From Clostridia bacterium (lineage in GTDB: Bacteria; Bacillota; Clostridia; Oscillospirales; CAG-272), in the NCBI GenBank assembly GCA_017428635.1, contig JAFRQK010000035.1, positions 12,632-76,631 of the forward strand: DNA of 64,000 nt, read 5' to 3'. Shown in pieces: positions 34,615 to 53,689 of this stretch. The notes under the pieces were generated by a model. It ran no database searches, had not been told where the DNA came from, and worked only from the letters and a program-made list of their open reading frames with translations. The translations under genes and the position numbers were made by a program. Each line of letters begins with the position of its first letter. The stretch's first letter is position 1.

Positions 34615-34831
34615 AAGACCGCCTCCTTTCGATAAATCTACATAATACTCCATTATATAAAGTATTATACACTAAAGGGGGAGCCAAGTCAACCGCGAAG
34701 GGGGCGTGAGACACGCTTTTTCGGGCCGTTTCTGAGGCGCTCCCGAGGCGCCGAAAAAATTTGAATTTGTTGTTGACAAAAGGGCGGGGTTATAGTATAA
34801 TACACTTTGCCGACGGGAAACCGGGGGCAAT

Positions 34832-34913
34832 GCGAGAGTGGCGGAACTGGCAGACGCGCACGTTTGAGGGGCGTGTGGTTCACACCGTACGGGTTCAAGT
34901 CCCGTTTCTCGCA
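34832..34913 (+). tRNA. tRNA-Leu(GAG), CCA not encoded
   Basis: Acceptor GCGAGAG/TTCTCGC, anticodon stem CACGT-TTGAGGG-GCGTG, long variable arm, GGTTCAAGTCC; TTGACA/TATAAT promoter upstream. Confidence 0.96.
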
Positions 34914-35138
34914 TAGAAAAAGGGCACTCGAAGAAGTGCCCTTTTTCTATGCGAGAAATAAGGAACGGGACTTGAAAAAGCGGCGGTAGTGAATGACAGC
35001 CCGGTGGGCTGTCAGAGCCGCCGCCTGACCGAGCGCCCGTCATCCTTTCGTATTTTGCGAAAGGATGACTCGCGGGCGCGAGAATCAAGTCCCCCGCGCC
35101 AAAGGCGCGGCAAAATTGAAATGCAGTAACCTTCATTT
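34914..35138 (+). other. tRNA-trailing structured element, copy 1
   Basis: Inverted copy of the tRNA 3' end, nested hairpins, second T-arm copy; homologous to the element after tRNA-Ser. Confidence 0.8.
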
Positions 35139-35348
35139 TGAGTATCCGGGTTTTTGTCCCGCTGCCCCGCGCCAAAGGCGCGGCATATTCGATTCTCGCC
35201 ATTCTTCATTTTGACCACCCCTGAACCGTTTTCATTACGTTTTTTCCAAAATGCAAGCGCTGCTTGACAAAATTCAAAGCAATTTATATTGAATGCAAGT
35301 AACAATTATAATATAATAAAACCGAAATTTTTGTCAGGGAGCGGCACA

Positions 35349-53036: not shown

Positions 53037-53193
53037 GGTTTACCTCCTTTCCGACTGAAAGGCCTTTCACCCTTATACCCGCAAAAAAACCGGATTGATC
53101 ACATTTTTTGAAAAATTTTGAAAAAAGGTTATAAGTTACGTTTTTGAATGAGGTGACTGCATTCTGAGCTGGCTGATACTGCGAGGCGGAGGA

Positions 53194-53240
53194 GGCTTCC
53201 CCTTGAGGGGAAGCTGTCACCGGAGGTGACTGATGAGGTG
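53194..53240. repeat. Clostridial REP-like double hairpin
   Basis: GCTTCCCCT-tg-AGGGGAAGC followed by GTCACC-gga-GGTGAC-TGATGAGG. Confidence 0.6.
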
Positions 53241-53242
53241 AG

Positions 53243-53472
53243 AAAGGGTACTGCATTTTGAGCAGGCTGCTCCTGCAGGGCAGGAGCAGAGGGATTCGAG
53301 TCGCGCTCCCGCGAGCTCGTTTTTCGCTGAACGCGAAAAACTCACGGTCGCTTGGTCGGGGAGGCGGGAAAACAGTCCCCCGGACTGTTTGCTGACACGC
53401 CTCCCATTCGAATCCCTTCCTTATGCTCTCCGAACGGAAAAAGGAGCCCACTTTGTGGCTCCTTTTTCCGTT
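53243..53472 (-). other. tRNA-trailing structured element, copy 2
   Basis: Same architecture and linker motifs as 34914-35138, with arms matching tRNA-Ser. Confidence 0.8.
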
Positions 53473-53561
53473 CGGAGAGAGAGGGATTCGAACCCTCGAA
53501 ACCGTTTTGCGATTTACGCGATTTCCAGTCGCGCGCCCTCGACCAACTAGGCGACCTCTCC
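53473..53561 (-). tRNA. tRNA-Ser(GGA), CCA not encoded
   Basis: GGAGAGG/TCTCTCC acceptor, CGCGA-CTGGAAA-TCGCG anticodon arm, long variable arm, GGTTCGAATCC. Confidence 0.96.
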
Positions 53562-53689
53562 GTGCCCCTAACCGGACGTGTGGTATTATAACATAGAATA
53601 TAATCTTTTGCAACACTTTTTTCAAAACTCCGGGGGCCTCGGAGCACTTGTGAGTTTGCTTCCGATATGGTAAAATATATCAAACGGAG

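What the first reader, a model, noticed from the sequence alone, without database searches (positions are those of the whole stretch)
34894..35138. tRNA-tailored multi-hairpin element after tRNA-Leu, homologous to the one after tRNA-Ser
Seen in sequence, in order: tRNA 3' end; a terminator-like hairpin whose stem extends into the tRNA (TGCGAGAAA); an ATAAGGA insert; an anti-T-arm ACGGGACTTGAA; stem GCGGCGG..[ACAGCCC-ggt-GGGCTGT]..CCGCCGC; linker CTGACCGAGCG; stem GTCATCCTTTCG/CGAAAGGATGAC; TCGCG/CGCGA; a second T-arm copy TCAAGTCCC (35085-35093); a small hairpin; then AAATGCAGTAACCTT. The element after tRNA-Ser has the same order and linkers (ATAAGGA, CCGACCAAGCG, TCGCG/CGCGA, AAATGCAGTACCCTT), but its stems differ in sequence while keeping their pairing, and its arms are Ser-specific (AGGGATTCGAA ... 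TCGAATCCC). The element therefore covaries with its host tRNA. Inference: the anti-T-arm can pair either with the tRNA T-arm/acceptor, unfolding the pre-tRNA, or with the distal copy, freeing it. That would make it a conformational switch for tRNA maturation, or a non-autonomous tRNA-targeting mobile or recombination element that copies its ends from the target. I do not recognise it as a described family.
Basis: partly seen in the sequence, partly recalled or inferred. Interest (0 to 1): 0.9.

Follow-up and report, generated by a model that had tools for sequence, protein, structure and literature searches.

The report
tRNA-tailored hairpin repeat behind tRNA genes
This is one copy of a protein-less, hairpin-rich repeat that sits just behind many tRNA genes in a group of gut Clostridia and carries an inverted and a direct copy of its own tRNA's T-arm, much like the little-understood RtT repeats behind tRNA-Tyr in E. 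coli.

Summary
Behind tRNA-Leu(GAG) and tRNA-Ser(GGA) lie homologous elements: terminator, inverted copy of the tRNA 3' end, a conserved core of two hairpins, then a direct copy of the T-arm.

It is a family.
- My covariance model finds 8 full copies in this genome.
- It finds matches in 28 of 151 genomes sampled from the order, and in 1 of 149 other genomes of the class.
- Of 61 matches in fetched loci, 32 lie 37-56 nt behind a same-strand tRNA (14 identities), with arms matching that tRNA. One genome also has tmRNA-specific arms.
- Cores group by genome (81% identity across tRNAs) rather than by tRNA (67% across genomes).
- One relative has an empty site at tRNA-Leu(TAG).

No Rfam family matches. 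However, E. coli RtT (RF00391) has the same build: anti-T-arm, hairpins, tRNA 3' end.

Best reading: a non-autonomous repeat that colonises tRNA 3' flanks and takes its arms from the target, joining inside the T-loop (nt 53-58). No transposase or integrase goes with it. The copying mechanism (template switching or an unknown enzyme) is inferred. RNA expression could not be tested.

The parts
34832..34913 (+). tRNA-Leu(GAG), no encoded CCA. T-loop 34894-34900, T-stem 3' strand 34901-34905, acceptor 3' strand 34906-34912, discriminator 34913. Its own consensus promoter lies at 34773-34801.
34917..34946 (+). Terminator hairpin (arms 34917-34927 and 34936-34946, loop 34928-34935). It is the centre of a longer perfect palindrome.
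   Evidence: read from the sequence
34947..34957 (+). Inverted copy of the spacer, discriminator and acceptor 3' strand. It extends the terminator palindrome into the tRNA.
34958..34964 (+). 7-nt insert ATAAGGA between the inverted acceptor and the inverted T-stem. Other copies of the genus have ATTGAAA or ATTGAAC here.
34965..34976 (+). Anti-T-arm (a'): reverse complement of tRNA nt 54-65.
34977..35084 (+). Conserved core. Hairpin 1 with nested apical hairpin 34980-35024, linker 35025-35032, helix with tandem G.A plus hairpin 2 at 35033-35079, GAGAA 35080-35084.
35085..35093 (+). Direct copy (a) of tRNA nt 55-63. It pairs with a' to close the core. In this copy the acceptor part has been lost.
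35094..35132 (+). Genus-specific 3' module: a GC hairpin (35094-35110) and the AATGCAGT motif (35120-35132). A second copy of the hairpin lies at about 35165-35185.
53473..53562 (-). tRNA-Ser(GGA), host of the sister element.
53288..53472 (-). Sister element: terminator 53433-53472, inverted acceptor 53426-53432, insert 53418-53425, a' 53407-53417, core 53300-53406, a 53288-53299.
53151..53287 (-). 3' modules behind the sister element: a hairpin, AATGCAGT (53245-53257), a hairpin-rich repeat that is also found separately elsewhere, and a second AATGCAGT (53151-53163).

Best explanation
The element is one copy of a family of small (about 90-130 nt core), protein-less, hairpin-rich repeats that live in the 3' flank of tRNA and tmRNA genes in this order of gut Clostridia. 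Each copy has three parts:
- an inverted copy of the host tRNA's T-loop and T-stem 3' strand (a')
- a conserved core of two hairpins
- a direct copy of the tRNA from the T-loop onward (a), often running through the acceptor strand, CCA and part of the terminator

On the tRNA-sense strand, a' and a pair and clamp the core into a three-way junction.

I read it as a DNA-level selfish repeat that spreads from one tRNA gene to another within a genome. Its arms are taken from the target at each new site, and both junctions lie in the universally conserved first bases of the T-loop.

What is shown:
- family membership
- arm-tRNA matching
- clustering of cores by genome
- presence/absence at an orthologous site
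- junction positions
- absence of a linked recombinase

What is inferred:
- The copying step. My preferred version is replication template switching at the terminator hairpin and at the core, with T-loop microhomology, giving the order direct-inverted-core-direct. An unknown nuclease or recombinase that cuts in the T-loop is the alternative.
- That read-through from the tRNA promoter yields an RtT-like RNA.
For: Family and arms:
- 8 full copies in the own genome.
- Matches in 28 of 151 genomes of the order, 18 of 97 genera.
- 32 of 61 matches lie 37-56 nt behind a same-strand tRNA, with anti-matches of 9-15 nt and direct matches of 8-23 nt.
- a' follows the 3' strand, not the 5' strand, where the T-stem has a G.U pair (L075).

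Spread within genomes:
- Core identity is 0.81 for same genome and different tRNA (46 pairs), against 0.67 for different genome and same tRNA (46 pairs).
- In G119, near-identical cores sit behind Ser, Gln, Ala and Arg tRNAs, each with its own arms; two more copies downstream of ssrA carry tmRNA arms.

Insertion polymorphism:
- At tRNA-Leu(TAG), G002 is empty. G000 has 127 bp plus a 46-bp perfect direct repeat that runs from nt 55 to the end of the terminator.

Junctions:
- a starts at nt 54-58 in 35 of 37 copies; a' reaches nt 52-55 in 37 of 37.
- The order direct-inverted-core-direct, centred on the terminator loop, is seen.
- In G119 the direct repeat ends at the terminator loop behind tRNA-Gln and tRNA-Ala.

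No linked enzyme:
- No recombinase gene lies between the two elements of the window.
- Y1 transposase is found in 10 of 28 genomes with the element against 56 of 151 overall, and not at all in this genome.

Structure:
- 94.3% of cells are paired against 74.2% in shuffles, and 25 of 35 pairs show double changes.
Against: - No mechanism was observed.
- The empty site could be a deletion between the direct repeats rather than a never-filled site.
- Template switching does not explain the conserved 7-nt insert between the inverted acceptor and a' in this genus. It also does not explain loci where the two terminators differ (Val-cac in G000, L077, L078, L082, L083).
- The core's sequence, including unpaired linkers, is conserved across many families of the order. 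That is more than a passive palindrome needs and suggests a protein or RNA function.
- G.U pairs outnumber A.C 72 to 15 on the tRNA-sense strand, as expected for an RNA. The model-based alignment leans that way, though.
- Only 5 candidate protein families were tested for linkage.
Confidence: 0.5

Rival explanations
1. It is an RtT-like functional RNA. Read-through from the tRNA promoter makes a trailer RNA whose clamp helix plus acceptor strand (and CCA) imitate the top half of the tRNA. tRNA-processing enzymes would then release and stabilise it, and the core would bind a protein or act in stress signalling, as proposed for E. coli RtT.
For: - The build is the same as Rfam RtT: an outer helix of anti-T-arm and T-arm copy, then the acceptor strand with CCA.
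- The element is always on the tRNA strand behind a strong promoter.
- Direct copies often run through CCA.
- In this genus the inverted acceptor would complete a minihelix.
- Unpaired linkers are conserved, a tandem G.A is kept while its flanking pairs flip, and G.U exceeds A.C.
- RtT is reported to respond to stress and may modulate the stringent response (passage).
Against: - Every unit lies behind an intrinsic terminator, and no promoter lies inside it.
- In the window's two copies the acceptor part of the direct copy is lost.
- The anti-arm does not compensate when the direct copy mutates.
- Copy number varies from 0 to more than 10 between close relatives.
- The same core also occurs away from tRNAs and in viral contigs.
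Confidence: 0.2
2. It is a miniature integrative element. A cargo-less attP-like module would be moved in trans by a site-specific integrase that crosses over in the T-loop, restores the tRNA 3' end and leaves the old 3' end as attR.
For: - A direct repeat from the T-loop to the tRNA 3' end flanks the insert, as in tRNA-targeting islands.
- Tandem arrays occur.
- Different terminators on the two sides at several loci fit an element that brings its own terminator.
- Islands do sit at these tRNAs: a 9.6-kb island with a large serine recombinase lies between tRNA-Leu(CAG) and its element.
Against: - No integrase is adjacent to the elements.
- This genome has only 5 tyrosine recombinases, yet at least 11 tRNAs carry inverted copies.
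- Five targets share near-identical cores in G119.
- Junction positions vary over nt 54-58.
- The serine-recombinase island is joined at the very 3' end of the tRNA and merely displaced an existing element.
- A standard integrase does not explain the inverted arm.
Confidence: 0.13
3. It is the first reader's RNA switch. The anti-T-arm would pair either with the T-arm of the nascent pre-tRNA, blocking folding, or with the distal copy, releasing it, and so control tRNA maturation.
For: Both pairings are possible on paper. a' matches the tRNA over 9-15 nt and the distal copy over 7-13 nt. In several copies a' matches the tRNA better than it matches the distal copy.
Against: - a' lies after the terminator T-run.
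- Elements are present or absent at the same tRNA in sister species, and tandem arrays exist. Neither fits a tuned regulator.
- The same core with other flanks exists away from tRNAs.
Confidence: 0.07

Closest known systems
RtT RNA / rttR repeats of the E. coli tyrT-tyrV operon (Rfam RF00391)
   Same: - It lies directly behind a tRNA gene on the same strand.
- Each unit has an inverted copy of the T-arm 3' half, internal hairpins, then a direct copy of the tRNA 3' end with CCA.
- The inverted and direct copies form the outer helix.
- The units occur in tandem.
   Different: - There is no detectable sequence or profile similarity. RF00391 does not match the window element at E up to 10. My model scores RtT no better than E 0.34.
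- RtT is tied to tRNA-Tyr of enterobacteria. This family serves at least 14 tRNA identities, and one genome has tmRNA arms, each with its own arms.
- This family carries a terminator in each unit.
MITEs and REP/REPIN-type palindromic repeats
   Same: It is short, non-coding, hairpin-rich and multi-copy. It breaks assemblies and varies between close relatives.
   Different: - The 'terminal inverted repeats' are copied from the target tRNA, not from the element.
- The direct repeat is long and variable (8-38 nt), not a fixed short target duplication.
- There is no link with Y1 (RAYT / IS200-type) transposases.
Genomic islands integrated in tRNA/tmRNA genes with crossover in the T-loop (recalled from the literature on integrase sublocation classes; not read here)
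   Same: The direct repeat runs from the T-loop to the 3' end of the tRNA, the tRNA is kept intact, and successive units stack up downstream.
   Different: There is no integrase and no cargo. An inverted arm and a structured core sit exactly at the junction, and the junction position varies.
Template-switch products at inverted repeats (tandem inversion duplications, quasipalindrome correction). Search listing and abstract starts only: PMC8794818, PMC4689423, PMC7202029
   Same: The order is direct-inverted-direct, with junctions at hairpins. Hairpins stay perfectly paired through double changes.
   Different: Those are sporadic mutations. Here a conserved core travels with the event and recurs at many tRNAs and in many genera.

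Membership tests
RtT RNA (Rfam RF00391) | Lies directly 3' of a tRNA gene on the same strand | tested here: met
   32 of 61 model matches lie 37-56 nt behind a same-strand tRNA
RtT RNA (Rfam RF00391) | Outer helix formed by an inverted copy and a direct copy of the T-arm 3' half | tested here: met
   for the window; for E. coli
RtT RNA (Rfam RF00391) | Unit ends with the tRNA's 3'-terminal acceptor strand and CCA | tested here: inconclusive
   Met in many family members (direct match up to 38 nt). In the window's Leu copy only 9 nt remain, and in the Ser copy 12 nt.
RtT RNA (Rfam RF00391) | Scores with the family's covariance model | tested here: not met
   no RtT match at E up to 10.: the reverse test gives a best E of 0.34. 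one search is the positive control (4 hits in E. coli).
MITE | Element-specific terminal inverted repeats and a short target duplication of fixed length | tested here: not met
   Arms differ with each host tRNA. The direct repeat is 8-38 nt and variable.
REP/REPIN or IS200/IS605-derived palindromic element | Co-occurs with a Y1 (HUH) transposase | tested here: not met
   none in this genome (96% complete).: 10 of 28 genomes with the element against 56 of 151 overall.
IS91-type rolling-circle element (target GTTC) | Y2 transposase present | tested here: inconclusive
   no match in this genome, but the family rang in none of the 14 control genomes, so the search has no positive control.
tRNA-targeting integrative element | Direct repeat of the tRNA from the crossover to its 3' end on both sides of the insert | tested here: met
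tRNA-targeting integrative element | A cognate integrase, in the element or at least in the genome, for each target | tested here: not met
   none near the window's elements.: 5 tyrosine recombinases.: 11 tRNAs with inverted copies.
Template-switch (inverted triplication) product | Order direct-inverted-direct with junctions at palindromes | tested here: met
   The first junction is the terminator loop and the second is the core.
Template-switch (inverted triplication) product | Arises during replication without a dedicated enzyme | not testable with these tools
   Needs mutation-accumulation or fork-stalling experiments.

The most novel reading that the evidence does not exclude
A self-propagating DNA element with no gene of its own that re-targets itself. 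Its conserved hairpin core would use the invariant GTTC of every T-loop as a landing point. At each new tRNA or tmRNA gene it would write a fresh inverted and a fresh direct copy of that gene's 3' end around itself. That makes it a 'programmable' palindromic parasite of tRNA genes, with E. coli RtT as an old, frozen example. If a dedicated enzyme exists, it would be a new T-loop-DNA-specific nuclease or recombinase.
Probability: 0.3. Interest if true: 0.85.

Novelty: new variant of a known kind. Interest (0 to 1): 0.7.

Why it matters
RtT has been an isolated curiosity of the E. coli tyrT operon for decades, with no agreed origin or role. Here the same architecture appears as a large, evolving family across an order of gut Clostridia. 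It serves many tRNAs, and in one genome tmRNA too, with arms re-made for each host.

This makes two questions testable:
- How is an inverted plus a direct copy of a tRNA 3' end generated around a structured core?
- Do such trailer elements make RNAs that imitate the tRNA top half?

It also has practical consequences:
- These repeats break metagenome assemblies at tRNA genes.
- They can be mistaken for att sites of islands.
- They add pseudo-3'-ends that confuse tRNA and island annotation.

Tried and rejected
Known RNA families
- Rfam at gathering score on the window and on 6 loci gave only tRNA.
- At E up to 10, only chance hairpin hits to microRNA models appeared.

Candidate enzymes
- IS200/IS605 or RAYT: rejected.
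- IS91: no hit, but the search had no positive control.
- IS110: one copy in this genome, 1.9 kb from tRNA-Pro(GGG), with no family core beside it. Not pursued.
- Reverse transcriptases: two of unclear class, not next to any element and without template/variable repeats. No link was found.
- Large serine recombinase: it lies just upstream of the 'orphan' element with Leu(CAG) arms. The island carrying it is joined at the tRNA's very 3' end and only pushed the element 9.6 kb away. It is not the element's enzyme.

Ideas dropped
- A CRISPR-like 5' handle: ATTGAAA before a' resembles one, as I recall. Dropped because genera outside this one have no such insert.
- A kink-turn in hairpin 1: the internal loop is not kept between the two core variants.

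Searches that gave nothing useful
- Phage records: no match.
- Viral contigs: 8 loci. One is a host flank with two tandem tRNA-type units; the others are the non-tRNA form of the repeat.
- Sequencing runs: no RNA holder was listed. The DNA contigs that were laid break at the elements and gave no usable joints.
- Literature: searches found no description of such elements behind bacterial tRNA genes. led to RtT. Supplementary files were not consulted.

Full report
THE OBSERVATION

The window holds two tRNA genes: tRNA-Leu(GAG) on the plus strand and tRNA-Ser(GGA) on the minus strand.
- Behind tRNA-Leu comes a terminator hairpin. Its palindrome runs on through the spacer, the discriminator and the acceptor 3' strand.
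- Next come a 7-nt insert and a 12-nt reverse complement of the T-loop plus T-stem 3' strand, which I call a'.
- Next comes a core with a long hairpin that carries a nested apical hairpin, a linker and a second hairpin.
- Last come 9 nt that repeat the T-loop/T-stem in direct orientation (a), a small GC hairpin and an AATGCAGT motif.

The Ser element aligns with it part by part. Both fold far better than shuffles, with z of -8.2 and -6.4. In the fold, a' pairs with a and closes a three-way junction.

IT IS A FAMILY

BLAST of the element against the window's own 2.27-Mb assembly gave 32 matches. I scanned the 300-400 nt behind all 41 tRNAs. Many carry an inverted copy of their own 3' end 30-57 nt downstream and a direct copy 130-190 nt downstream. 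In a control, 8 of 36 tRNAs meet both criteria with their own tail, against 31 of 1260 mismatched tRNA/flank pairs.

I aligned 12 copies and built a covariance model from them.
- It finds 8 full-length copies in this genome.
- It finds matches in 28 of 151 genomes sampled from the order, in 18 of 97 genera.
- It finds matches in only 1 of 149 other genomes sampled from the class.

Of 61 matches in the loci I held, 32 lie 37-56 nt behind a same-strand tRNA. Their anti-matches are 9-15 nt and their direct matches 8-23 nt. They cover Leu, Ser, Gly, Glu, Val, Thr, Gln, Arg, His and Met tRNAs, 14 anticodon identities in all. Most of the rest are second units of tandem arrays or a non-tRNA form of the repeat.

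In genome G119, two copies downstream of the tmRNA gene carry arms specific for tmRNA.

Where a T-stem has a G.U pair, a' follows the 3' strand and not the 5' strand (L075). So a' is a true reverse complement.

STRUCTURE

On 59 distinct sequences, 94.3% of cells in the model's 35 pairs are standard pairs. Shuffles give 74.2% and slid controls 33-42%. Of the 35 pairs, 25 show double changes.

The helix next to hairpin 2 keeps a central tandem G.A while its flanking pairs flip between two variants.

G.U pairs outnumber A.C 72 to 15 on the tRNA-sense strand. This points to that strand as the folded one, but the alignment was fitted to a model of that strand.

Covariation alone does not prove an RNA function. 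Template switching at inverted repeats has been reported to create and maintain perfect hairpins (PMC8794818; I saw only the listing and the start of the abstract).

EVIDENCE THAT IT MOVES AND TAKES ITS ARMS FROM THE TARGET

- Cores group by genome. With the arms stripped, cores are more alike within a genome at different tRNAs (mean identity 0.81, 46 pairs) than between genomes at the same tRNA (0.67, 46 pairs). The highest between-genome values come from pairs such as G127/G088, G002/G001 and G130/G065.
- In G119, near-identical cores stand behind four different tRNAs, each with its own arms. Two further copies downstream of ssrA carry tmRNA arms.
- An empty site exists. At tRNA-Leu(TAG), relative G002 has tRNA, terminator and flank only. 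G000 has an extra 127 bp plus a perfect 46-bp direct repeat, running from nt 55 of the tRNA to the end of the terminator. Whether this is a gain or a loss by repeat recombination cannot be told.
- The junctions are narrowly placed. In 37 tRNA-linked copies, a starts at nt 54-58 in 35 of them. a' reaches nt 52-55 in all 37. That is, both junctions fall inside the invariant start of the T-loop, with 1-2 nt of scatter.
- The order of copies is regular. In this genus it is tRNA 3' half, terminator loop, inverted 3' half, core, then direct 3' half again. In G119 the direct repeat ends at the terminator loop at two loci.

WHAT DOES NOT GO WITH IT

- Between the window's two elements lie regulators, sigma factors and S-layer proteins, but no recombinase.
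- This genome has no Y1 transposase. It has one IS110 far from any element, two reverse transcriptases elsewhere and five tyrosine recombinases.
- Across the order sample, Y1 transposase is present in 10 of 28 genomes with the element and in 56 of 151 overall.
- Two 'orphan' copies have arms for tRNAs 8-10 kb away. Other DNA has been inserted between the tRNA and its element. One insert is a 9.6-kb island with restriction-modification genes and a large serine recombinase, joined at the tRNA's last bases. The other is a single 2160-residue gene.

THE CLOSEST KNOWN THING

Recalling the old 178-bp repeats behind E. coli tRNA-Tyr, I fetched that locus. Each unit holds a 10-nt reverse complement of the T-arm 3' half, about 90 nt of hairpins, then 19 nt of the tRNA 3' end with CCA. 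It folds with the two copies as the outer helix.

Rfam's RtT model (RF00391) hits it four times, and its consensus structure has exactly that outer helix.

What I saw of the RtT literature:
- One passage says RtT is involved in processing of the tyrT transcript, perhaps modulates the stringent response, and that its mode of action is unknown (bioRxiv 10.1101/2024.07.17.603846, passage).
- Another says rttR is one of the repeat units of the tyrT operon (PMC3318445, passage).
- The original paper (PMC329039) is not held.

RF00391 does not match the window element, and my model does not match RtT (best E 0.34). The two are therefore alike in build, but not detectably related.

HOW IT MOST LIKELY WORKS

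What is shown: a core with target-derived arms spreads among tRNA genes within genomes, and both joins lie in the T-loop.

What I infer, as my preferred version: replication template switching.
- A nascent strand turns back at the terminator hairpin and copies the tRNA 3' half in reverse.
- It then uses the T-loop bases shared by all tRNAs to jump into and out of a core elsewhere.
- It resumes on its own T-loop, which yields the direct copy.

This accounts for the order of copies, the junction scatter, the terminator-loop boundaries and the lack of an enzyme.

It does not account for the conserved 7-nt insert of this genus, for loci with two different terminators, or for the strong conservation of unpaired core bases. 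An unknown T-loop-DNA nuclease or recombinase, or a trans-acting integrase, therefore remains possible.

A read-through RNA like RtT may well exist. The tRNA-Leu promoter matches the consensus in 12 of 12 positions, and no promoter lies inside the element. Expression could not be tested, because no RNA holder was listed.

VERDICT

The maturation switch is unsupported.

Novelty: a new, much broader variant of the RtT kind of tRNA-linked repeat. My searches found no description of it in print.

Noticed in passing
G000 contigs C14:58730-58930, C41:111220-111380, C9:66900-67090, C44:12440-12630, C76:29230-29400, C25:170-330; viral loci L125-L131: A second, non-tRNA repeat of about 150 nt shares hairpin 1 and the GACCGA linker with the tRNA element but has its own flanks ending in GGATGAGGTGAGA. 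It often lies just upstream of genes or at contig ends. It also occurs in 7 of the 8 IMG/VR loci found with the hairpin pattern.
   Followed up: partly
window 53187-53236 (-) and 35094-35185 (+): Behind the elements of this genus come further short modules: a GC hairpin plus an AATGCAGT-type motif, once or twice, and a hairpin-rich piece that looks like the non-tRNA repeat without its core.
   Followed up: partly
L122 (G000:C41:50150-60450): A 9.6-kb island lies between tRNA-Leu(CAG) and the element that carries Leu(CAG) arms. It holds two DNA methylase genes and other genes without a Pfam match. At its far end it has a 489-residue large serine recombinase. It is joined at the last bases of the tRNA.
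   Followed up: partly
L123 (G000:C3:31950-41000) and L049: A single 2160-residue gene lies between tRNA-Tyr and an element with Tyr arms. In that element, hairpin 1 is interrupted in its apical loop by another repeat. The same interruption is seen behind tRNA-Gln(CTG) in C76 and in L009. A GIY-YIG-like gene in AT-rich DNA follows.
   Followed up: partly
L120 (G119:C49:3000-9313): Downstream of the tmRNA gene, two 212-nt repeat units (91% alike) each end in an element with tmRNA arms and a copy of the tmRNA 3' end. About 1 kb of DNA with two further reading frames lies between them. I did not scan these; by eye one looks like a four-helix-bundle protein and the other like a cytidine deaminase.
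   Followed up: partly
L059, L062, L061; G000 C40:21000-21900, C19:78811-79100, C26:14692-15000, C41:142522-142800, C79:56211-56500: Other, unrelated hairpin cores occupy the same position behind tRNAs, again followed by a copy of the tRNA 3' end. In L059 and L062 the copy is a whole T-arm with a 9-nt loop. The architecture seems more general than this one core.
   Followed up: partly
L142 (G001:C48) against L036 (G000:C9:47060-47560): The tRNA-Val(CAC) gene with its promoter is inverted between two species of the genus. G001 has no element there, G000 has one, and G002 has a tandem array with Val arms at a contig end.
   Followed up: partly
L123:220-420; L120:4860-5060; L084, L022, L014 downstream parts: Arrays of short hairpins separated by GTGAAATCC-like or GTGATATT-like words follow the terminators of several tRNA and tmRNA genes in different genera.
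   Followed up: no
L071 (G000:C71) and L072 (G000:C36): Two reverse transcriptase genes (422 and 359 residues) match group II intron and defence-type RT models only below their cut-offs. No nearby direct repeats were found.
   Followed up: partly
G000:C78:63180-65437: An IS110-family transposase gene lies 1.9 kb downstream of tRNA-Pro(GGG), at a contig end. The non-coding stretch before it looks GC-rich and hairpin-prone by eye; I did not fold it.
   Followed up: no
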